A DNA stretch of 64,000 nt from a bacterium (GCA_030647415.1 JAUSKB010000026.1:10894-74893); one strand, 5' to 3'. Counted from the stretch's first letter, positions 8,918 to 20,068 are shown. Translations and numbers: made by a program. Notes: generated by a model from the sequence alone, not told the origin.

Positions 8918-8982
8918 GGCCACGAGAAACGCTCGTAGCTTCAGCAATGGAAAATTCATAACTTAATATGGGAGGAATTAGT

Positions 8983-9405
8983 ATGGGAACAATCATTCAT
9001 CCTTGCGAAGTACCCGGATGCCCAATCAAAGGCGAGGCTTCAAAGATGTTCAATCTGAAAAAGCTGCCGGGAAAGCCGCTCGTCGTCGTCTGCGCGAAGC
9101 ATGCACGGATGGCGCGGAAAGAGGGTGTAAAGGCATACAACCTTCAGAGCACCTTCGAGTACGAGGCGGAACGGGTCAAGGAGCGAGAGGGGGCCGCGGC
9201 GTTCATTCGGGCGCACAGCCGGACGAACGGCCGCGGGTACGGAATGCGGGAGCTGGCGAAAATCAACGGAAACGGCAACAAACAACGAAAGGAAGTGCGC
9301 GATGAGAAAGTTCCCATTACGAATCCCCCTCTCCAAGAAACCGGGGAGGGCGCAGGGAATGAAGCGGGGAGCGAAGGGGTACGACCGCACGCGCTCGCGG
9401 CGTGA
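8983..9405 (+). CDS. Hypothetical protein with a putative zinc ribbon (CEVPGC...C..H).
   Basis: RBS gggagg then ATG at 8983. The upstream in-frame ATG at 8968 lacks an RBS. Confidence 0.5.
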   Translation: MGTIIHPCEVPGCPIKGEASKMFNLKKLPGKPLVVVCAKHARMARKEGVKAYNLQSTFEYEAERVKEREGAAAFIRAHSRTNGRGYGMRELAKINGNGNKQRKEVRDEKVPITNPPLQETGEGAGNEAGSEGVRPHALAA

Positions 9406-9437
9406 GGTTCGAAAAGAAGTGCGGGGCGATGGCTAGC

Positions 9438-9500
9438 ATTGCCCCTACACTCGAGGTCATCACGGAGACGCCGTGGTGGGCTCGACGGTAGAAAATAGAA
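9438..9500 (+). promoter_or_regulatory. Structured leader motif, copy 2.
   Basis: gcccctacactcgaggtcatcacggagacgccgtggtgggctcgacggtagaaaat. Followed by RBS aaggag and the ATG at 9522. Confidence 0.5.
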
Positions 9501-9521
9501 CTTTTATAAAAGGAGTTTCAT

Positions 9522-10004
9522 ATGCGACAGAAACAGAAGGAGTACTTACGTACACTCGGATTTCCAACGAGCGGCGGAAAGGATGAGCTCATCGACCCCG
9601 CGGATGGCACCATCAATGCAGATGTCGTCGCAAAACGCATCTTCAAGTTCGCGCGCGGCAAGCGGATTATGGTCGCGTTCCACGAAGAGGCAAGCGGACC
9701 ACTCACGGTGATCGAGGGAAGGCTAGACTGTATCGCAAACATCTTCGGGAGTCATCTGGAGCTTACACAGGTGAAGCTGCTCCAGGGAGATATAGCAACA
9801 CTCGACCGTATACACTACCAGCGGGCGGGGGAACGCCAAAAATTCCTCTTCTGCTGCGCCGACTTCGCGAGGAGACATGACCCATCGAAGGATGATTTGC
9901 TTGTGGTGGACATCTCAACCATCTCGCACATCAACATGGACGGCGAGCGTATATACGCGTGCGTCCCGGTTGGTGACAGGTGCGTGCTCCGATTCGGGAG
10001 GTAG
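9522..10004 (+). CDS. Hypothetical protein (160 aa).
   Basis: RBS aaggag. Preceded by leader motif copy 2. Confidence 0.5.
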   Translation: MRQKQKEYLRTLGFPTSGGKDELIDPADGTINADVVAKRIFKFARGKRIMVAFHEEASGPLTVIEGRLDCIANIFGSHLELTQVKLLQGDIATLDRIHYQRAGERQKFLFCCADFARRHDPSKDDLLVVDISTISHINMDGERIYACVPVGDRCVLRFGR

Positions 10005-10030
10005 GTACCTGGAGCAATCGCGAACAGCGC

Positions 10031-10095
10031 GATTGCTCCTACACTCGAGGTCATCACGGAGACGCCGTGGTGGGCTCGATGGTAGAAAATGAACC
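10031..10095 (+). promoter_or_regulatory. Structured leader motif, copy 3.
   Basis: gctcctacactcgaggtcatcacggagacgccgtggtgggctcgatggtagaaaat. Followed by RBS gaggag and the ATG at 10120. Confidence 0.5.
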
Positions 10096-10119
10096 TTACA
10101 AATAAAAACAGAGGAGCAT

Positions 10120-10728
10120 ATGGCGTCGTGTGATCGATGTAAACGGACGTATGAGGATATTTACGAGGGTTGTACCGGAAATCAGGGATGGGGATGTGCA
10201 GCGTCTGCTGTAAAGCGGGACGGGAACATCTACGTCAGCGCTGGGTACGGATCAAAGTTCGACCTTTGCCTAATCAAAGTGGTCGGAGAAGAGGGAGTGG
10301 GAGTTTCAGTTGGCATGGAGATCTGCGACGCGTGCATCGAGAAGTTTATCAAGGAGGGGGTGGCAATCCACGACCATGCGTTCTGTGATCGCGTCCTCGA
10401 GGAACGTTGGCGAGCAGGCGAGCACAGCCCCACAGAGGAGATTGACCCGTTCACGGCAGCATGTGGAGGCATCACGAACGTCACTCCAATCGTCTGCCCG
10501 ACGTGCGGCAAAGACGGGGTGTGGCGGGACTGCAGGTTCTGCTGGTGCTGCGGAGCGCCGAACGTGTGGTTCGACGAGGGGGAATTTCCGGAGTCACCGG
10601 AGGCGCGGGCAGACTGCAAAGCTGGGCACCCGTGCATCAAAGAGGATGCCGCGGATGATCCCGAGGTCAGGCGTATGTACGCAGAGCGTCCGTTCTGCCT
10701 CGACTGCGGGAAGAGAATTTTCGAATAG
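10120..10728 (+). CDS. Cys-rich hypothetical protein (202 aa) with multiple CxxC pairs (zinc-ribbon-like).
   Basis: CDRC, CDAC, CPTCG, CRFCWCCG and CLDCG pairs are read from the translation. RBS and leader copy 3 lie upstream. Confidence 0.55.
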   Translation: MASCDRCKRTYEDIYEGCTGNQGWGCAASAVKRDGNIYVSAGYGSKFDLCLIKVVGEEGVGVSVGMEICDACIEKFIKEGVAIHDHAFCDRVLEERWRAGEHSPTEEIDPFTAACGGITNVTPIVCPTCGKDGVWRDCRFCWCCGAPNVWFDEGEFPESPEARADCKAGHPCIKEDAADDPEVRRMYAERPFCLDCGKRIFE

Positions 10729-11132: not shown

Positions 11133-14100
11133 CTATTTTGCGAGCCACAGACGGACCGGCATACCATCGAGCGTTGTTGCCGCCTCCGCGTCGAAGCGCC
11201 TCGGGACGCCGAACGTGAGCGCGGACGCCCGGACCTCGCGGCACACCAGCTTGGTGTCACGTGTAAGGATGAACCGGAGCTCCTCCGGCACCTCGACCGC
11301 GAGCGCGATCGGGTCCCGCGGCGAGAGCTTCGCGTCCTGCCGGAGCTCCTGAACCGCGCGGACGAACTCGCGGCGCCACCCCTCCTCTTTGAGTTCGTGC
11401 GTGATGACGGTGTCGAGCACCACCGGCTCCGAGATATTCGGATCAAAGACAATCTCCTTCACATTGACCTCATCCTTGAGGAGTTCGAGAAGTTCTGCTT
11501 TCCCCTGCAGTGTCCGGCCTTTCGCCGTTAGGCGAGATAATACCTGCCGGACCTTTATACCCGCCGTGGAACGAGCGGCGAGCCCCGCGCTCGCGAGCCG
11601 CCGCACCTCCGCCATGTCGGTGATGAGCTGTTTGTTGTCCCTCGGCTTCGCTCGGGCCGTTCGAGGCTCTGAGGAGCCCTCAGGCTCTCGAAGAGATGGT
11701 GAGCTTGTCGAACCATTTGTTGTTTGTCGTTTGTTTGCTGTCGGCCAGTCGGCAAGGTGCACCGAACGGTCAGCCTTCCCGGACACGAGCGATCGGTAGA
11801 GCGCCTCGGCGAAGAATGGGGTGAAGGGGGCGAGGAGCCGCGCAGTCGTCACGAGCGCGTACCCGAGGACCGCGGACGCTTCCTGGTGGTCAAGATCAGA
11901 GTCGGGATGCTGGAGCCGGCGGCGTGAACGCCGTATGAACCACCGTGAGAGGTCGCCCACGAACTCACCTACGACCCGCGCGGCGCCGCCGGGGTCGTAC
12001 GCCTCGAGCGCTCCGGTCGCCGCGGCAATCGTCTCGTCGAGCCGCGCGAGCACCCACCGGTCGAGCACATGTGTCGCTTTTGGTTGCTTGTTTGTTGTCC
12101 CTCGCTTCTGCTCGGGATGAACCATTTGTTTGTTTGTTTGTTGTCGGTTATTCCCATACGTCGCGAAGAACACAAACGAGTTGTAGAGGATACCGAACAG
12201 CTCCCGGCTCGCCGTCGCGAGGTCCCGTTCGTCGAACCGCTTCGGCTCCCCCGGCGGGTTCACGATAAAGAAGTACCAGCGGATGGCGTCCATACCGTGG
12301 GCATCGGCCGCGACCCAGGGGTCCACGGTGTTCCCCTTCGACTTCGACATCTTCTGCCCGTTCTTGTCGAGCACGTGACCCATCGAGATGACGTTCTTGA
12401 ATGGGGCCTTCTTGCCGAGGAGGGTCGCGACGGCGAGGAGGGTGTAGAACCAGCCCCGCGTCTGGTCTATGGCCTCCGAGATGTAATCCGCCGGGTAGGG
12501 TAGTTTCTGTATACTCGTCTCTTGTCTCTTGTCTCTGACCCGTTGTTGGTTGTCAGTCGTAGGTTGTCGGTTACCAAACGGGTAGTGCGCCTGCGCAAAC
12601 GGCATCGCACCGGAGTCGAACCAGACGTCTACTACGTCCGGGATGCGATGCATTGTCCCGTCCCGCTTGGCGGGATCTCGCGAAGCTCGACACTTCGCGC
12701 AGGGGTAGGTCACCTCGTCGATGTACGGTCGGTGAAGGTCGAGTTCTCCAAATCGGTTCCGCGGAAGCGGGATGGGTTCCACCTCACGCGCCTTGCCTTT
12801 CATCGGGTACGAGCCGGAGTCTGCAGCTTCCTGAGCCTCCGTATTCGTCCATCCATGCATCGCCGCCTCAAGCATCCAAAGTGGGTCGCCATGACTTACC
12901 ACCACGATGGTCTTGTTCTGGTGCATTCTATCCACTTCCGTAATGAAATCGTACATCCGGCGGCGGACGTCATTGCGCGACTCCCCGCCCTCCGGCGCCA
13001 CCGCGAATCCATCGGGGGCATTCTTACAAAGGAGGACGTGTTCATCCGCAGACCTGCCGTTCAGAATGCCACAACGAAGTTCCTGCAATCGCTCATCGGT
13101 TATAACCTTCGTAATCCCCGCCGCTGTAGCGATGAGCGTTGCAGTCTCTTGGGTGCGCTGTAGGGGCGAGGCGTAGACAGCATCGACACCCTCTTTCGCC
13201 AGCTTCAGAGCGGTTGCCTCTACATCGGACCGGCCTTTCAGGGTCAAATGGTAGCCTTTCTGTATCGGCAAGCAATCCAATAGTCGTTCAAGGTTGCTCT
13301 CCGCCTCGCCGTGCCGCACGAGGATATACCGGTTCGTTGATTTCGGAAGCTTCGCCGAAACCTCCGCGATGCTTCCCAACACCTCCGTGTGCGCGCACTG
13401 CTCGCACCGCCAGACCGGGAGCGGCGTCCCCCAGTACCGCGCGCGGGAAATTGCCCAGTCCTTCACCTCGCGGAGCCACTCGCCGAACCGGCCGTCCTTT
13501 AGATGCGCCGGCACCCAGTTGATTGTCTGGTTCGCCGCAATGAGCTTCTCGCGGAGCGAACTCATCCGGATGAACCAGGAGGTGCGGGCGTAGTAGATGA
13601 GCGGCGTCGAACAGCGCCAGCAGAACGGGTACTCGTGCGCGATGGTCTCGCGCTTCAGGAGCGAGCCCTGCTTTTCGAGCGCGGCGATGATTGCCTCCGT
13701 CGTCTCCTTTTCAATAACGGGGTCCTTGTGTTTCACCGTCCGTCCCGCGAACTCCGCCACATCCTTCGTGAACCGGGCCTGCTCGTCCACCGTATGGTGC
13801 TGGGGGAGCCCCACCTTCACGCCGAGCTGGTAGTCATCCTCGCCATACATAACCGCGGTGTGGACCACGCCCGTGCCGTCCGTCGTCGTCACGAACCCCG
13901 CCGGATAGACCTGGTACGCCGCCTCTGTCTGGAGCGGCTTCACATCGAAGAGCGGGTGATATCGCAAACCTTCAAGATAACTTCCTATAAAAGTCGAAAG
14001 CACTTTGTGGTAGGGGTTATCCTTGAACTTATGCTGAACCAGATTCGGATTAGCGCTTGGAACTCCGGGCATAGTCCATCGTTCATGAATCTCTTGAGCT

Positions 14101-14897
14101 AATATGACTTTCTCCTTCCCATTCTCGTGTTCGGCGATTACGTACTCAACAGCAGGTTTGACTGCGAGCGCTACGTTCCCCGGGAGTGTCCAGGGCGTCG
14201 TGGTCCACGAGAGGATGTAGGTCCGGTCGTCAGTTGTGAAGTTCCCGATTTTCTGGCCCTTTTCCAGTTTGAATTTCACATACACCGACTCATCATTCAC
14301 CTCCTTATATCCCTGCGCGAGCTCATGGGTGGAAAGCACCGTGCCGCACCGCGGGCACCACGGGACTACCTTGCGGCCCTCGAAGAGGAGCTTCTTGCGG
14401 TGAATCTCCTTCAGGATCCACCAGAGCGACTCCATGTATGTCGCGTCGTAGGTGACGTACGGGTGTTCCATGTCGAGCCAGAAACCCATCCGCTCGGTGA
14501 GCCGCTCCCACTCGTCCTTGTACTTCCACACCGAGGTGCGGCACGCCTCATTGAACTTCTCCACGCCGTACGTCTCGATGTCCCGCTTGGACTTCAAACC
14601 AAGCTGCTTCTCCACCTCGAGCTCCACGGGGAGACCGTGCGTGTCCCACCCGCCCTTCCGGGGCACGCGGAACCCCCGCATCGTCTTGTACCGGCAAATG
14701 ACGTCCTTGAAGGAGCGTGCGATGACATGGTGGATGCCGGGCCGGGCATTCGCGGTCGGTGGTCCCTCGTAGAACACGAAGGTCTTCTTCGCCGGGCGCT
14801 GGGCGATGGATTTCTGGAAAATCCCGTTCAGTTTCCAAAACTTGAGGACCTCCTCCTCGATCTTCGGGAGTGAGAACGACTCGAGATGCTTCAGCAT
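11133..14897 (-). CDS. ileS: Isoleucyl-tRNA synthetase carrying an embedded histidine-phosphatase (PGAM-like) domain and three low-complexity Q/T/N-rich insertions.
   Basis: The N-terminus MLKHLESFSLPKIEEEVLKFW and the KMSKS motif are collinear with IleRS. Residues ~555-745 (nt ~12776-13346) carry the RHG motif (YILVRHGEAESN) and a second His motif (VVVSHGDPLWML). The likely start is M38 of the track ORF (TTG/ATG, ~14897); the ORF extends to 15008. Confidence 0.88.
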   Translation of the reverse strand: MLKHLESFSLPKIEEEVLKFWKLNGIFQKSIAQRPAKKTFVFYEGPPTANARPGIHHVIARSFKDVICRYKTMRGFRVPRKGGWDTHGLPVELEVEKQLGLKSKRDIETYGVEKFNEACRTSVWKYKDEWERLTERMGFWLDMEHPYVTYDATYMESLWWILKEIHRKKLLFEGRKVVPWCPRCGTVLSTHELAQGYKEVNDESVYVKFKLEKGQKIGNFTTDDRTYILSWTTTPWTLPGNVALAVKPAVEYVIAEHENGKEKVILAQEIHERWTMPGVPSANPNLVQHKFKDNPYHKVLSTFIGSYLEGLRYHPLFDVKPLQTEAAYQVYPAGFVTTTDGTGVVHTAVMYGEDDYQLGVKVGLPQHHTVDEQARFTKDVAEFAGRTVKHKDPVIEKETTEAIIAALEKQGSLLKRETIAHEYPFCWRCSTPLIYYARTSWFIRMSSLREKLIAANQTINWVPAHLKDGRFGEWLREVKDWAISRARYWGTPLPVWRCEQCAHTEVLGSIAEVSAKLPKSTNRYILVRHGEAESNLERLLDCLPIQKGYHLTLKGRSDVEATALKLAKEGVDAVYASPLQRTQETATLIATAAGITKVITDERLQELRCGILNGRSADEHVLLCKNAPDGFAVAPEGGESRNDVRRRMYDFITEVDRMHQNKTIVVVSHGDPLWMLEAAMHGWTNTEAQEAADSGSYPMKGKAREVEPIPLPRNRFGELDLHRPYIDEVTYPCAKCRASRDPAKRDGTMHRIPDVVDVWFDSGAMPFAQAHYPFGNRQPTTDNQQRVRDKRQETSIQKLPYPADYISEAIDQTRGWFYTLLAVATLLGKKAPFKNVISMGHVLDKNGQKMSKSKGNTVDPWVAADAHGMDAIRWYFFIVNPPGEPKRFDERDLATASRELFGILYNSFVFFATYGNNRQQTNKQMVHPEQKRGTTNKQPKATHVLDRWVLARLDETIAAATGALEAYDPGGAARVVGEFVGDLSRWFIRRSRRRLQHPDSDLDHQEASAVLGYALVTTARLLAPFTPFFAEALYRSLVSGKADRSVHLADWPTANKRQTTNGSTSSPSLREPEGSSEPRTARAKPRDNKQLITDMAEVRRLASAGLAARSTAGIKVRQVLSRLTAKGRTLQGKAELLELLKDEVNVKEIVFDPNISEPVVLDTVITHELKEEGWRREFVRAVQELRQDAKLSPRDPIALAVEVPEELRFILTRDTKLVCREVRASALTFGVPRRFDAEAATTLDGMPVRLWLAK

Positions 14898-15029
14898 GAT
14901 GTATAGATATTCTACCGAAAGAATGTACCGAGAGCCACTGTGGCGGGCTAGCGCTTGACGCGCGATATAAAAAGTTGTAATAAGAGTACAGACGGATTTT
15001 CCCAACAAACCACAATATAAGGAGGGCGT

Positions 15030-15398
15030 ATGAGTAGACGAATGTGCTATAGCGTACTTCTGGGAGCTCTTGGAATCACGCTAGCCATCTCGCTTGCGGG
15101 GTGCGAACGGTGGAAAACATTCCGATTCTCATTCAGTAATCGGACGGTGAGTGCCATCGTCGCGAAAATTGACGGTGAGCGGCTCGGCGAGGTTGGGGCG
15201 GGCGAGACACGGCAGTTCGAGCACGAAATCAGAGTGCTTGAGTCATCGCCGACAGGGTACGGGCAAACGGACGAAGCGGAGGTGACGGCTTCCGCAGAAA
15301 ATCTGCGGACAGGGAAAGTGACGCGAGAGATGCGCCGACGCGTGTACCGCGACCGGGTGAACCACTTTGATATCAACACCTGGGACTTCTCGCCATAA
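15030..15398 (+). CDS. Putative lipoprotein (lipobox LAGC).
   Basis: RBS aaggagg. Signal peptide with LAGC lipobox. Confidence 0.6.
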   Translation: MSRRMCYSVLLGALGITLAISLAGCERWKTFRFSFSNRTVSAIVAKIDGERLGEVGAGETRQFEHEIRVLESSPTGYGQTDEAEVTASAENLRTGKVTREMRRRVYRDRVNHFDINTWDFSP

Positions 15399-15867: not shown

Positions 15868-15978
15868 TCAACATCTCCTTGTGAAAAAGTGGATACGGGT
15901 GAATTATTTTCTCCGAACATCATAAGTCTTAAATATTAGATTTGTCAATAGCAGACTTCCGGCCGCAAAAACAAAATA

Positions 15979-16014
15979 GCCCGCCGCTCGCTACTACTCG
16001 CCACCCAGCAAAAA
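15979..16014. repeat. Direct repeat copy 1 (aaaatagcccgccgctcgctactactcgccacccagcaaaaa), flanking an AT-rich cassette.
   Basis: A near-identical copy lies at 16661-16700. Together they bracket the membrane-protein gene 16064..16546. Confidence 0.6.
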
Positions 16015-16063
16015 TGAGTTACTAAAATTGTAAGCCAACCCTAAAAAGATATATACTACTGTA

Positions 16064-16546
16064 ATGAAAAACTTACTTAAAGTTTCCTCGGCATTAGCAA
16101 TCGTGGCTGGTCTTGTGCTGGTCACGGGTAGTATTTGGGGCATTTATTTTACATACAGAAACATTGCTCAAGAGAAAATTGTAACTCCAGCTGATTCGTC
16201 CATCCCAGAAAAGCCGGTACGTGGACCTTTGACGCTTAAAGCGCAGGCTGACATTATCCGAGAGCATACGCTGAAAATGACTGGTGGAAAAACATATGCT
16301 GAAATGCCTCGACAAATTGTAAAACTAGAAGAAAACAACCAGCCGGTATTGGGCGATGACGGCAAACCCGTCATGGTGGCAAATACCGCGCGGGATATCT
16401 GGATCACGGCAACAACCCTAACCACAGCTCTTCATCTTGGCATCCTCACGTATGTATTTTCCGGCCTTATCCTATTGTTTGGCCTTATCTCTATCTGGAC
16501 GGGCATTGTGTTTTACACTTTGAGCCGAAGAGGAAACTTTGCATAA
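16064..16546 (+). CDS. Hypothetical membrane protein (160 aa) in an AT-rich segment.
   Basis: N-terminal TM helix and C-terminal hydrophobic stretch. Local GC is clearly lower than the flanks. Confidence 0.5.
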   Translation: MKNLLKVSSALAIVAGLVLVTGSIWGIYFTYRNIAQEKIVTPADSSIPEKPVRGPLTLKAQADIIREHTLKMTGGKTYAEMPRQIVKLEENNQPVLGDDGKPVMVANTARDIWITATTLTTALHLGILTYVFSGLILLFGLISIWTGIVFYTLSRRGNFA

Positions 16547-16660
16547 ATTTTCGACCGGAATTTTTGGCGGTGATCATTCTGGCATTGTTACAATATTTTC
16601 AAGTAATTTGAATTGGGTGTGGGGGAATTCCGCCATTCCTTTGCAAAAAATAGAGGCCAG

Positions 16661-16752: not shown

Positions 16753-16992
16753 TTAAACCAATCGCTTATTTCTGAATGCAAAGCCGGAGCTGGATTTTAA
16801 ATATCGCTCAAAATCATAGGCCATCATCTTCTCCATGAAAGCTCCGTACCAGACAATTTGGTATGGGGCTTTTGCTCTCGTCGACTTCGTTTCTCCAGAA
16901 TTATGCTCCTTCAGCCTGCTTCTGAGGTCGGCAGTCACGCCTATGTAGTAGCTCTCGTCCACTTTGCTCCGCAAGATGTAAACGTACCACAT
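16753..16992 (-). CDS. GIY-YIG nuclease superfamily protein (UPF0213-like).
   Basis: MWYVYILRSKVDESYYIGVTADLRSRLKEHNSG is the canonical GIY-YIG motif. Start taken at the M just before YVYIL. Confidence 0.7.
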   Translation of the reverse strand: MWYVYILRSKVDESYYIGVTADLRSRLKEHNSGETKSTRAKAPYQIVWYGAFMEKMMAYDFERYLKSSSGFAFRNKRLV

Positions 16993-17131
16993 GGTTGAAT
17001 TATACTCCCCCACTTCGGTGAACCTACGCGGGGTCCACCACCCCACGTCGCTAAAGCTCTGCGGGGTCCACCACTTCGCATTTCGCAGTGCTACGCACCG
17101 CGAAGCCCCCTCCGGTAAGGAGGGGGCGAAG

Positions 17132-18475: not shown

Positions 18476-20068
18476 ATGCGAGCACAAATCCGCGCCGCGA
18501 TAGCCGACCTCGTCCCGCCCGGGACGGCAATCGAAGTGGTCCCGGCGGACCACGAAGACATGGGTGACTACTCGACCCGCGTGGCGTTCACACTCTCAAA
18601 AGTGCTCGGGAGGCCGCCGGTTGCGATTGCGGAGGATATCGCGGCGGCGCTCAAGAAAAAACATCCGGACCTTGTCCGTGACGCCGTCGCCGCCACGCCG
18701 GGGTTCCTGAACATCACGCTCACGGACGCCGCACTCCAGAGCGTCGTCACTGAAGTACTTGAGAAGGGCAGTGGTTACGGCCCCAATAAGCTCCCCGAGG
18801 CCGAGCGGGAGCACATACAGGTGGAGTACATCTCCGCGAACCCGACCGGACCCCTCACGCTCGCAAACGGCCGCGGCGGATTCCTCGGGGACGTCATCTC
18901 AAACGCGCTCATGGCCGTGGGGCACATGGTGGAGCGCGAGTACTACGTGAATGACACTGGGAATCAGATCGAAACTCTCGGGAAATCCATACTCGCGGCC
19001 GCGGGGAAGATTCCGCCGGAAGAGACCTTCTACAAGGGCGACTACGTCCGCATCTGGGCGGAGGCGCATTTGAAGGATGTGGAGCGGCTCGCGAGCGACC
19101 CCCACGAGCTGGGCCGCACGGCGGCGCGGGACTTCCTTACGGTCATGAAATCCGTCGTGGAGGGCAAGGCGGGTATCCTCTTCGACCGGTACACATCGGA
19201 ATATGACGACATCCGCGCGAAGGGGTACCCAGAAAAGGCGCTCGCCCTATTCCGCATGAAAGGCGTGGCGTACGAGGCGGATGGCACCGTCTGGCTCAAG
19301 ACCACCGACTTCGGCGACGATAAGGACCGCGTGCTCGTCATGAAAACAGGCGAGCCGACCTACTTCCTTGCGGATGCCGGCCACTACATCGAGACCGTGG
19401 AGCGCGGATTCACGTGGAAGATTAACATCCTCGGGCCGGACCACTACGGGTACGTGGCGCGCATCCAGGCCGCCGCGAAGCTTGTGGAGCTCCAAAAATC
19501 CGAGGTGCTTATCACACAGGCGGTGCGGCTCATTGAGAACGGGGTGGAGCGGAAGATGTCGAAACGCAGTGGAACCTTTGTGGCGTTCAACGAACTCGTG
19601 GAGGAGGTACTGCCCGACGCCGCGCGATTCTTCTTCCTCTCGGTGGCGCCCGAATCACACATGGATTTCGACCTCACGCTCGCGAAGGAGCGGTCCAACA
19701 AGAACCCCGTCTTCTACGCCCAGTATGCCTACGTCCGCGCGGTGAAGGTGCTCGAGAGGTTCGGGGGTGAACCAAATCAAACGACGCCGCTCACCCCCCT
19801 CACCGGCGCGAAGGACCGCCGCCTCATGCGCCTCATCGCCGACTACCCCGCTGCCGTCGAGGATACGGCGCGCGATTACCGCGTCCACCGCCTCACGCAG
19901 TACGCCTCGGCGCTCGCTAAGGGTCTCCACGACTGGTACGAGACGGAGCACGTAGTGGGAGAGGCGCCGGACGTCGCCCGTGCGCGCGCGGCGCTCCTTG
20001 CCGCCGTGAAAATCACCTTCGAGAACCTCTTCTCCGTCATCGGCATCACCGCCCCAAGCGAGATGTGA
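18476..20068 (+). CDS. argS: Arginyl-tRNA synthetase.
   Basis: Class I signature SANPTGPLTLANGRGG, MSKRSG motif and C-terminal DALR anticodon-binding region. ~530 aa. Confidence 0.9.
   Translation: MRAQIRAAIADLVPPGTAIEVVPADHEDMGDYSTRVAFTLSKVLGRPPVAIAEDIAAALKKKHPDLVRDAVAATPGFLNITLTDAALQSVVTEVLEKGSGYGPNKLPEAEREHIQVEYISANPTGPLTLANGRGGFLGDVISNALMAVGHMVEREYYVNDTGNQIETLGKSILAAAGKIPPEETFYKGDYVRIWAEAHLKDVERLASDPHELGRTAARDFLTVMKSVVEGKAGILFDRYTSEYDDIRAKGYPEKALALFRMKGVAYEADGTVWLKTTDFGDDKDRVLVMKTGEPTYFLADAGHYIETVERGFTWKINILGPDHYGYVARIQAAAKLVELQKSEVLITQAVRLIENGVERKMSKRSGTFVAFNELVEEVLPDAARFFFLSVAPESHMDFDLTLAKERSNKNPVFYAQYAYVRAVKVLERFGGEPNQTTPLTPLTGAKDRRLMRLIADYPAAVEDTARDYRVHRLTQYASALAKGLHDWYETEHVVGEAPDVARARAALLAAVKITFENLFSVIGITAPSEM

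What the first reader, a model, noticed from the sequence alone, without database searches (positions are those of the whole stretch)
11133..14897. IleRS carries an embedded histidine-phosphatase (RHG) domain
About 190 aa with the classic histidine-phosphatase catalytic motifs (YILVRHGEAESN and VVVSHGDPLWML) are inserted in frame in the isoleucyl-tRNA synthetase. The insertion lies between the CP/zinc-knuckle region and the DVWFDSG/KMSKS part, at nt ~12776-13346. The product is 1255-1291 aa, against 900-1100 aa for typical bacterial IleRS. I am not aware of a described aaRS-histidine phosphatase fusion. It could be a moonlighting or regulatory domain, or a domain acting on a nucleotide or aminoacyl-adenylate analogue.
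Basis: partly seen in the sequence, partly recalled or inferred. Interest (0 to 1): 0.75.

Follow-up and report, generated by a model that had tools for sequence, protein, structure and literature searches.

The report
Phosphatase domain embedded inside isoleucyl-tRNA synthetase
An essential translation enzyme (isoleucyl-tRNA synthetase) of an uncultured Patescibacteria bacterium carries a complete, apparently active histidine-phosphatase domain spliced into one of its surface loops; the same phosphatase family is repeatedly fused to, or encoded beside, other tRNA-charging enzymes in this group, but its substrate is unknown.

Summary
One ORF (11133-14897, minus strand, 1254 aa) is a full type-2 IleRS (TIGR00392, 852 bits). 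A 182-aa His_Phos_1 domain (E 6.5e-34) is inserted between the two Cys pairs of its zinc knuckle.

It is not a misassembly. All 120 closest full-length homologues (48-66% identity, many Patescibacteria lineages) have the insert at the same site. Its length is 179-189 aa and the catalytic residues R528, H529, R581, E639 and H669 are invariant. AlphaFold models it confidently (pLDDT 93). The nearest structures are small-molecule phosphatases (PspA, PhoE, GpgP, CobC), not mutases.

The same subfamily occurs as a free 190-aa gene beside ileS and/or argS in 7 of 7 sampled loci. It is also fused independently to a second IleRS lineage (two copies), ValRS (1-4 copies), ArgRS (at least twice) and TsaC.

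I infer an active phosphatase coupled to adenylate-forming tRNA enzymes. It most likely clears a small phosphorylated product or by-product (PPi or a nucleotide); the substrate is unproven.

The kind is not new: Kantor et al. 2013 noted an SR1 IleRS interrupted by two phosphoglycerate-mutase domains and a Nudix domain. It has never been characterised.

The parts
11133..14897 (-). ileS coding sequence (1254 aa plus stop): type-2 IleRS with an embedded phosphatase domain
   Evidence: ORF; TIGR00392 852 bits; identical to NCBI MDO8470080.1
13341..14897 (-). Residues 1-519: N-terminal half of the Rossmann (HUP) fold, the CP1 editing domain and the first CxxC of the zinc knuckle
   Evidence: Aligns to 1ILE residues 3-482. 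Editing motifs WTTTPWTLPGN and GTGVVHTA are invariant in 120 homologues.
14727..14738 (-). GIHH (residues 54-57): the non-canonical GXHH form of the class I HIGH motif
   Evidence: Translation; 117 of 120 homologues have GxHH. The motif is described as conferring mupirocin hyper-resistance in IleRS2.
13395..13406 (-). C498-E-Q-C501: first Cys pair of the zinc knuckle, just upstream of the insert
   Evidence: Aligns to the T. thermophilus CQAC motif; invariant or nearly so in 120 homologues
12795..13340 (-). Residues 520-701: inserted histidine-phosphatase (His_Phos_1) domain
   Evidence: Pfam E 6.5e-34; no counterpart in 1ILE; AF2 pLDDT 93.2 alone and 90-97 in context; Foldseek top hits PspA, GpgP, TIGAR and PhoE
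13308..13316 (-). R528-H529-G530: RHG motif with the predicted nucleophilic histidine
   Evidence: Aligns to R8/H9 of PspA 4IJ5; R and H invariant in 120 of 120
12891..12893 (-). H669 (SHG motif): second catalytic histidine
   Evidence: Aligns to the SH motif of PspA; invariant in 120 of 120
12690..12701 (-). C733-A-K-C736: second Cys pair of the zinc knuckle, downstream of the insert
12339..12353 (-). KMSKS motif (residues 849-853)
   Evidence: Invariant in 120 homologues
11727..12062 (-). Anticodon-binding domain (residues 946-1057)
   Evidence: Pfam Anticodon_1 E 7.6e-24
11202..11423 (-). C-terminal type-2 domain (DUF5915, residues 1159-1232)
   Evidence: Pfam E 1.2e-14
12498..12590 (-). 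Lineage-specific low-complexity loop (residues 770-800). This is 'site 2', where ValRS relatives carry their phosphatase domain.
   Evidence: AF2 pLDDT below 50 at residues 773-797; ValRS P0383 sequence
12063..12149 (-). Low-complexity loop (residues 917-945). This is 'site 3', where HYGH-type IleRSs carry a second phosphatase domain.
18476..20068 (+). argS (context): ArgRS gene 3.6 kb from ileS, next to smpB and tmRNA. This echoes the argS-phosphatase-ileS neighbourhood of relatives.
   Evidence: tblastn 36% identity to ArgRS P0305, E 4e-97; ORF

Best explanation
Shown: the gene encodes a bifunctional protein. It is a complete, editing-competent type-2 IleRS (GXHH subclass). A self-contained PhoE/PspA-like histidine phosphatase of about 182 aa is inserted in a surface loop of the connective-peptide zinc knuckle. 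The domain has an intact catalytic core: R528, H529 as nucleophile, R581, E606 and H669.

The domain belongs to a Patescibacteria subfamily. Its free-standing genes sit directly beside ileS and/or argS. It has been fused many times independently to enzymes that use ATP to make an adenylate plus PPi for tRNA function: IleRS, ValRS, ArgRS and TsaC.

Inferred: the phosphatase is catalytically active and works together with these enzymes. It acts as a tethered or operonic helper, not as a part of the aminoacylation active site. Its most likely job is to hydrolyse a small phosphorylated product or by-product of the adenylation reaction through a phospho-histidine intermediate. PPi is the only product all four partner enzymes themselves release. 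Alternatives are a nucleotide such as AMP or a polyphosphate side-product. Hydrolysis would pull or de-inhibit adenylate formation in organisms with minimal metabolism.

The insert arose once at the base of a large Patescibacteria IleRS clade. The ancestor probably had the phosphatase gene immediately upstream of ileS. The insert has since been cleanly lost several times.
For: Reality and conservation:
- All 120 best full-length homologues carry PF00300 at the same site.
- Insert length is 179-189 aa. R528, H529, R581, E639 and H669 are invariant in 120 of 120; E606 is E in 115 and D in 5.
- 25 GTDB species representatives have the insert.

Fold:
- AF2 pLDDT is 93.2 with pTM 0.91 for the insert alone, and 90-97 within a 1100-aa model of pTM 0.83.
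- The closest relatives by sequence and structure are short small-molecule phosphatases: PspA 4IJ5, PhoE 1EBB/1H2E, GpgP, TIGAR and CobC.

IleRS intact: ileS equivalog score, KMSKS, editing motifs and four zinc-knuckle cysteines are all conserved.

Functional linkage:
- Seven of seven sampled stand-alone subfamily genes are adjacent to ileS or argS. Five lie immediately upstream of an insert-less ileS (1-10 nt gap or an 11-nt overlap), and five lie just downstream of argS.
- Independent fusions are ArgRS plus a C-terminal domain in 3 clusters, at two places in the domain tree; ValRS with 1 or 4 copies; TsaC plus domain; and a separate HYGH-type IleRS lineage with two copies.
- All 87 domains analysed keep R-H-x-R-[E/D]-E-H, apart from one Gln at the E639 position in one second copy.
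- Firmicutes Pseudoramibacter and Urinicoccus have a His_Phos_1 gene directly downstream of ileS.

Other support:
- Kantor 2013 reports a Nudix (nucleotide-diphosphate hydrolase) domain co-inserted with two such domains in SR1 IleRS.
- The ValRS-fusion genome encodes two iPGM genes, so the domain is not needed there as the glycolytic mutase.
Against: - No substrate is demonstrated.
- I know of no branch-1 histidine phosphatase that hydrolyses PPi (from memory).
- The insert was lost cleanly at least three times, with no phosphatase gene within 6 kb. It is therefore dispensable for IleRS in some lineages.
- Fusion to ArgRS, and perhaps the link to IleRS, could partly reflect inherited gene adjacency and not function.
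- Insertion position and copy number vary, which argues against precise channelling.
- Patescibacteria are reported to use membrane PPi-pumping pyrophosphatases, so hydrolysing PPi in the cytoplasm might be wasteful.
- The trees are neighbour-joining trees without support values.
Confidence: 0.4

Rival explanations
1. tRNA-end phosphatase. The domain removes a 3'- (or 2'/5'-) terminal phosphate from tRNA bound to the synthetase. This would be an end-healing step that makes damaged tRNA chargeable again, analogous to the phosphatase activity of the HD domain of the E. coli CCA-adding enzyme.
For: Three of the four partner types (IleRS, ValRS, ArgRS) bind the tRNA acceptor end. Site 1 lies in the connective-peptide region between the two Rossmann halves, the same topological region as the CP1 editing domain, which acts on the tRNA 3' end. 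The CCA-enzyme precedent is from memory (Yakunin 2004).
Against: TsaC makes TC-AMP and does not handle the tRNA end. The fusion position varies (three internal sites, or C-terminal) and so does copy number (1-4). The closest folds are small-molecule phosphatases with no RNA-binding extension. There is no distinctive positive charge. Stand-alone versions exist.
Confidence: 0.17
2. Unrelated housekeeping phosphatase. The domain is an ordinary metabolic enzyme (for example phosphoserine phosphatase, a short dPGM or a generic sugar-phosphate phosphatase). It became fused or inserted through genome streamlining and inherited gene adjacency, with no mechanistic link to aminoacylation.
For: The best structural and sequence neighbours are metabolic phosphatases. 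The top NCBIfam hit is the short archaeal dPGM. The insert is dispensable in several lineages. ArgRS fusions can be explained by loss of a stop codon between neighbouring genes.
Against: Internal insertion into IleRS (two lineages) and ValRS, and fusion to TsaC, cannot be explained by adjacency. Every characterised-family score is far below its cutoff. The ValRS-fusion genome already has two iPGMs. Adjacency to ileS also occurs in Firmicutes.
Confidence: 0.2
3. Regulatory or protein-phosphatase module. The domain senses a phosphorylated metabolite, or removes inhibitory phosphorylation from the synthetase (for example after attack by a HipA-type kinase), and so gates aminoacylation.
For: The superfamily includes protein phosphatases such as SixA, PGAM5 and Sts-1 (from memory). 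The insertion sites cluster around the KMSKS half of the catalytic fold.
Against: The nearest folds are not SixA- or Sts-like. No SixA-family hit appears among the window insert's 25 listed NCBIfam matches. There is no kinase in the conserved neighbourhood.
Confidence: 0.08
4. Artefact or dead insert. The region is a misassembly or frameshifted separate gene, or a decayed non-catalytic remnant.
For: None found. Some database fragments do start at internal Met445 or Met527, which shows that gene-calling artefacts occur in this family.
Against: The ORF is continuous. The architecture is identical in more than 120 clusters from independent projects. Catalytic residues are invariant. The fold is confident.
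Confidence: 0.02

Closest known systems
[quoted passage not shown] 2013, mBio 4:e00708-13)
   Same: A CPR bacterium; IleRS interrupted in frame by phosphoglycerate-mutase-family (His_Phos_1) domains; uncharacterised.
   Different: The window protein has one domain, no Nudix domain, and belongs to a different IleRS lineage. It has the GXHH motif, whereas the two-domain IleRSs found here have HYGH. These look like independent acquisitions.
PhoE (B. stearothermophilus YhfR, 1EBB/1H2E) and PspA (H. thermophilus phosphoserine phosphatase, 4IJ5)
   Same: Same fold and size (about 190-210 aa) and the same catalytic core R-H-R-E-H. They are the best sequence hits (profile E 1e-27 and 4e-26) and among the top structural hits (PspA first, PhoE rank 14; TM about 0.7).
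   Different: Those are free-standing metabolic enzymes. Identity is only 25-31%, and NCBIfam PspA scores 65 bits against a cutoff of 350. The subfamily has its own signature (N-x-Y before RHG, and a WPE loop in most members).
Type-2 IleRS with the GXHH motif (mupirocin hyper-resistant IleRS2; Brkic et al. 2023)
   Same: The IleRS body is of this type: GIHH at the HIGH position, a type-2 C-terminal domain (DUF5915), and best PDB hits T. thermophilus and P. megaterium IleRS2.
   Different: None of the characterised enzymes has a domain inserted in the zinc knuckle.
Rv2228c / RnhC: bifunctional RNase H plus CobC-like acid phosphatase of mycobacteria (NCBIfam NF005567)
   Same: A short His_Phos_1 domain fused to a nucleic-acid enzyme. 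It is the second-best phosphatase hit in NCBIfam (75 bits).
   Different: That is a terminal fusion, not an internal insertion. The partner is RNase H, and the score is far below the cutoff of 326.
ileS_w_GNAT (NCBIfam NF040702): IleRS carrying an N-acetyltransferase domain
   Same: Precedent for an extra catalytic domain built into IleRS.
   Different: A different domain. The window protein scores 290 bits against a cutoff of 1999, so it is not a member.

Membership tests
Isoleucine--tRNA ligase (TIGR00392 ileS equivalog) | Whole-protein score above the curated cutoff | tested here: met
   851.9 bits against a cutoff of 621.4
Isoleucine--tRNA ligase (TIGR00392 ileS equivalog) | Class I signature motifs (HIGH-type and KMSKS) | tested here: met
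   GIHH (the GXHH variant) at residues 54-57; KMSKS at 849-853, invariant in 120 homologues
Isoleucine--tRNA ligase (TIGR00392 ileS equivalog) | CP1 editing domain with its conserved motifs | tested here: met
   WTTTPWTLPGN and GTGVVHTA...D present and invariant; aligns to isolated CP1 structures 1WK8 and 1UE0
Isoleucine--tRNA ligase (TIGR00392 ileS equivalog) | Aminoacylation of tRNA-Ile | not testable with these tools
   Requires biochemistry
IleRS2 GXHH subclass (mupirocin hyper-resistant) | First and third residues of HXGH swapped (G/A-X-H-H), with a type-2 C-terminus | tested here: met
   GIHH; DUF5915; definition
IleRS2 GXHH subclass (mupirocin hyper-resistant) | Millimolar Ki for mupirocin | not testable with these tools
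   Requires an enzyme assay
Histidine phosphatase superfamily, branch 1 (PF00300) | Pfam score above the gathering threshold | tested here: met
   117.7 bits against 21.7, E 6.5e-34
Histidine phosphatase superfamily, branch 1 (PF00300) | Catalytic core: RHG Arg and His, second Arg, Glu proton donor, second His | tested here: met
   R528, H529, R581, E606 and H669 align to PspA R8, H9, the SPLKR Arg, the Glu of IIEIDHG, and the SH His; invariant or over 95% conserved in 120 sequences
Histidine phosphatase superfamily, branch 1 (PF00300) | Alpha/beta fold of the superfamily | tested here: met
   AF2 pLDDT 93.2; Foldseek probability 1.00 and TM 0.62-0.73 to PspA, GpgP, PhoE and TIGAR
Histidine phosphatase superfamily, branch 1 (PF00300) | Phosphatase activity through a phospho-histidine intermediate | not testable with these tools
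   Requires biochemistry
Cofactor-dependent phosphoglycerate mutase (dPGM) | Score above the curated cutoffs of the dPGM models | tested here: not met
   dPGM_arch 81.5 bits against 225; GpmB 56.8 against 261; PRK01295 42.6 against 316. Long dPGMs align only over their N-terminal part.
Phosphoserine phosphatase PspA (NF045917) | Score above the cutoff | tested here: not met
   64.8 bits against 350
Alpha-ribazole phosphatase CobC (TIGR03162) | Score above the cutoff | tested here: not met
   67.7 bits against 162.9
CPR IleRS interrupted by PGM-family domains (as noted by Kantor 2013) | IleRS of a CPR bacterium with in-frame phosphoglycerate-mutase-family domain(s) | tested here: met
   One domain at residues 520-701; homologues named Patescibacteria
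CPR IleRS interrupted by PGM-family domains (as noted by Kantor 2013) | Two PGM domains plus a Nudix domain (the SR1 arrangement) | tested here: not met
   A single His_Phos_1 domain and no NUDIX hit

The most novel reading that the evidence does not exclude
The embedded domain is a third catalytic activity of class Ia synthetases, specific to Patescibacteria and possibly other ultra-small prokaryotes. It would be a dedicated helper phosphatase that is tethered to, or co-transcribed with, IleRS, ValRS, ArgRS and TsaC. It would hydrolyse PPi or a nucleotide by-product, or heal phosphorylated tRNA ends. That would make it an unrecognised, lineage-wide component of the tRNA-charging machinery, and possibly the first branch-1 histidine phosphatase with such a substrate.
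Probability: 0.35. Interest if true: 0.8.

Novelty: new member of a known kind. Interest (0 to 1): 0.6.

Why it matters
Aminoacyl-tRNA synthetases rarely acquire new catalytic domains. When they do, as with editing domains, the domain usually reveals a quality-control or coupling step in translation.

Here a conserved, apparently active phosphatase is built into an essential synthetase across a large part of the Patescibacteria. The same module is genetically tied to ArgRS, ValRS and the t6A enzyme TsaC. This points to an unrecognised requirement of tRNA charging in organisms with minimal metabolism, such as product removal, nucleotide housekeeping or tRNA repair.

The question is directly testable with recombinant protein. 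Nature has already supplied controls: insert-less sister enzymes and free-standing phosphatase genes. The host enzyme also carries the GXHH motif associated with mupirocin hyper-resistance.

Tried and rejected
- **Misassembly or frameshift:** rejected.
- **Glycolytic dPGM or phosphoserine phosphatase identity:** all curated-family scores are far below their cutoffs. The ValRS-fusion genome has two iPGMs.
- **Genome scan with the diverse insert alignment:** I repeated it with the single protein, which used exact peptides of the query, so the count of 25 species is a lower bound.
- **'Stand-alone' P0242:** it is 76% identical to an IleRS insert and includes flank-like residues. It is probably a fragment of a broken ileS, so I did not count it.
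- **Proteins starting exactly at conserved Met445 or at 'MRHG' (Met527):** I considered a split IleRS. Gene-caller starts at conserved methionines are more likely. Not resolved.
- **Second domain of P0259:** I first placed it at site 2. One search shows it is a tandem copy at site 1.
- **Charge and pI of the domains as a test for RNA binding:** uninformative.
- **Literature on soluble pyrophosphatase in Parcubacteria:** uninformative.
- **Pfam scan of window neighbours and of the TsaC-fusion neighbours:** nothing relevant.
- **Literature searches for aaRS-histidine phosphatase fusions:** negative apart from the Kantor 2013 sentence.
- **Geometry:** no model coordinates were available, so I could not measure the distance between H529 and the synthetic site or the tRNA path.


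Full report
**1. The observation**

The window contains a single uninterrupted ORF at 11133..15008 on the minus strand. The ATG at 14897 gives a 1254-aa product identical to NCBI protein MDO8470080.1, annotated only as 'class I tRNA ligase family protein [bacterium]'. The window is bacterial, since it carries a tmRNA gene.

Pfam finds tRNA-synt_1 (residues 17-521), His_Phos_1 (525-689, E 6.5e-34), tRNA-synt_1/1g (817-895), Anticodon_1 (946-1057) and DUF5915 (1159-1232). The NCBIfam ileS equivalog scores 852 bits against a cutoff of 621. GC content is continuous across the junctions.

Alignment with T. thermophilus IleRS (1ILE) matches residues 3-519 and 702-1056. Residues 520-701 (nt 12795-13340) have no counterpart. 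The insert lies between C498-x2-C501 and C733-x2-C736. These align with the two Cys pairs of the T. thermophilus enzyme; from memory, they form its second zinc site (Nureki 1998).

**2. It is real and conserved**

A search with the insert plus flanks found about 50 clusters combining PF00133 and PF00300, mostly named Patescibacteria. A full-length search returned 120 best hits of 1110-1373 aa at 48-66% identity, and every one carries PF00300. Names include Jorgensen-, Wolfe- and Liptonbacteria, Paceibacterota and Minisyncoccia.

In their alignment the insert is 179-189 aa long. R528, H529, R581, E639 and H669 are invariant, and E606 is E in 115 sequences and D in 5. The four zinc-knuckle cysteines and KMSKS are conserved. 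The insert is less constrained overall than the enzyme body (38% identity against 60-67%). A limited scan of GTDB species representatives found 25 species with the full insert.

AlphaFold2 predicts the insert as a compact domain (pLDDT 93.2, pTM 0.91). In a 1100-residue model (pLDDT 86.4, pTM 0.83) the insert scores 90-97, and only the low-complexity loops are disordered.

**3. What kind of phosphatase**

H529 aligns with His9 of Hydrogenobacter PspA. This is the residue mutated in the H9A structure 4IJ6.

The best solved relatives by sequence profile are PhoE (1e-27), PspA (4e-26) and CobC (6e-21). By fold they are PspA, mycobacterial GpgP, TIGAR, PhoE, a riboflavin-pathway phosphatase and CobC (TM 0.62-0.73). 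These are all short small-molecule phosphomonoesterases. Scores against every curated NCBIfam family (dPGM, PspA, CobC, GpmB) are far below their cutoffs. The specificity therefore cannot be transferred by homology.

**4. The wider family**

An exhaustive search with the insert alone gave 951 representatives at E below 1e-10. Classifying the top 150 and scanning them against Pfam and NCBIfam showed the following architectures.

- (a) IleRS with one insert.
- (b) A different IleRS lineage with the canonical HYGH motif and two domains. The two are tandem at site 1 in P0259 and P0349, or at site 1 plus a site after the KMSKS region in P0276 and P0345. A related partial tandem-domain IleRS (P0375) is named Candidatus Peribacteria.
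- (c) ValRS with the domain inserted after DTWFSSG...GWP (P0383; valS 948 bits), and a ValRS fragment with four tandem copies (P0350).
- (d) ArgRS with a C-terminal domain, in three clusters down to 49% identity, while about 117 nearest ArgRSs lack it.
- (e) TsaC/Sua5 with a C-terminal domain (P0340).
- (f) About 40 free-standing proteins of roughly 190 aa.

All 87 domains examined keep the catalytic core, apart from one Gln at the E639 position in a second copy.

**5. Gene neighbourhood**

I looked up seven stand-alone representatives. Five lie immediately upstream of an insert-less ileS on the same strand, with a 1-10 nt gap or an 11-nt overlap. One is adjacent to a convergent ileS. Five lie just downstream of argS. 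All seven touch at least one of the two genes. Downstream genes (recO, DUF7619) match those following the ArgRS fusion in L081.

In the window itself, ileS, tmRNA, smpB and argS lie within about 9 kb. In Firmicutes with insert-less GXHH IleRS, Pseudoramibacter and Urinicoccus have a His_Phos_1 gene directly downstream of ileS.

**6. Evolution (neighbour-joining trees, no support values)**

In the domain tree, most site-1 IleRS inserts form one clade. ArgRS fusions fall at two separate places among stand-alone genes, and the TsaC fusion is nested among stand-alone genes.

In the IleRS-body tree, the insert-less enzymes with an upstream phosphatase gene (L082, L089) are sister to the insert-bearing clade. 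Insert-less L029, L030 and L026/L027 are nested within that clade, and they have no phosphatase gene within 6 kb. This suggests one gain and at least three clean losses.

**7. Mechanism**

Shown: an intact IleRS carrying an independently folding phosphatase domain with a conserved active site, which is genetically linked to adenylate-forming tRNA enzymes.

Inferred: the enzyme is bifunctional, and the phosphatase supports the aminoacylation cycle. I favour a small-molecule substrate, for these reasons:

- the closest folds are small-molecule phosphatases;
- TsaC does not handle tRNA ends;
- the position and copy number of the domain vary;
- free-standing versions exist;
- a Nudix domain is co-inserted in SR1 IleRS.

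PPi is the only product released by all four partner enzymes themselves, so it is the most parsimonious candidate. Nucleotides such as AMP or polyphosphate side-products are alternatives.

The rivals are a tRNA-end phosphatase, an unrelated metabolic phosphatase carried along by adjacency, and a regulatory or protein phosphatase. The glycolytic-mutase version of the metabolic rival is weakened by the presence of two iPGM genes near the ValRS fusion.

**8. Novelty**

The architecture is in public databases, unremarked in annotation. The searchable literature contains one sentence on a related case, Kantor et al. 2013: SR1 IleRS interrupted by two phosphoglycerate-mutase domains and a Nudix domain. 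Recent IleRS evolution and structure papers do not mention it, and other searches were negative.

The window protein is therefore a new member of a kind that has been noted but not characterised. I did not find the following described anywhere: its breadth across Patescibacteria, the link to ileS and argS gene neighbourhoods, and the network of independent fusions to ValRS, ArgRS and TsaC.

Noticed in passing
window 14727-14738 (-): The class I HIGH motif is GIHH. This is the GXHH variant shown by Brkic et al. 2023 to give mupirocin hyper-resistance in IleRS2. It is shared by 117 of 120 insert-bearing homologues and by the insert-less Patescibacteria and Firmicutes relatives.
   Followed up: partly
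window 11619-11735, 12063-12149 and 12498-12590 (-): ileS contains three lineage-specific A/C-rich, low-complexity in-frame stretches, predicted to be disordered. The first two share DNA repeats found nowhere else in the window: a 28-nt pair at 86% identity (11629-11656 and 12089-12116) and a 17-mer at 11710 and 12119. The stretches at 12498-12590 and 12063-12149 coincide with loops where relatives (ValRS and HYGH-type IleRS respectively) carry phosphatase domains.
   Followed up: partly
window 15900-16650: A low-GC patch (39-48%, against about 60% in ileS) lies between ileS and tmRNA. ORFs near it (15030-15398, 16064-16546) have no Pfam hit, so it may be foreign DNA.
   Followed up: no
window 16753-17046 (-): A short ORF next to tmRNA has a sequence (YVYILRS...YYIGVT...RL..HN) that looks like a GIY-YIG/URI-type nuclease by eye. 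I did not verify this with a profile search.
   Followed up: no
window 8968-10728 (+): Three ORFs downstream of ileS have no Pfam hits. They include a Cys-rich 202-aa protein (10120-10728) with several CxxC pairs.
   Followed up: partly
L043 7978-8997, L051, L067 7810-8418, L070: In Pseudoramibacter and Urinicoccus (Firmicutes), a His_Phos_1 gene lies directly downstream of the insert-less GXHH ileS. In Pseudoramibacter it is fused to an ArsC/Spx-like C-terminal region.
   Followed up: partly
proteins P0246, P0295, P0310, P0326, P0356, P0367: Six 50%-identity cluster representatives of about 750 aa start exactly at the conserved Met445 of IleRS and run to the C-terminus. They could be a split ileS in some lineages, or gene-caller starts at a conserved methionine.
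   Followed up: no
protein P0350: A ValRS N-terminal part is followed by four tandem His_Phos_1 domains with intact catalytic cores (three checked). It sits on a 3.9 kb contig, so the C-terminal part is unknown.
   Followed up: partly
L094 817-3951: Two tandem cofactor-independent phosphoglycerate mutase genes lie next to enolase, a few kb upstream of the ValRS-phosphatase fusion, which is followed by tyrS.
   Followed up: no
(P0005, P0008, L001, L013, L004 etc.): A few records with the insert-bearing IleRS carry non-Patescibacteria names: Sedimentisphaerales, Nanoarchaeota, 'uncultured Gammaproteobacteria' and 'Saccharibacteria'. These may be binning or labelling errors, or real transfer to DPANN archaea. 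I did not check.
   Followed up: no
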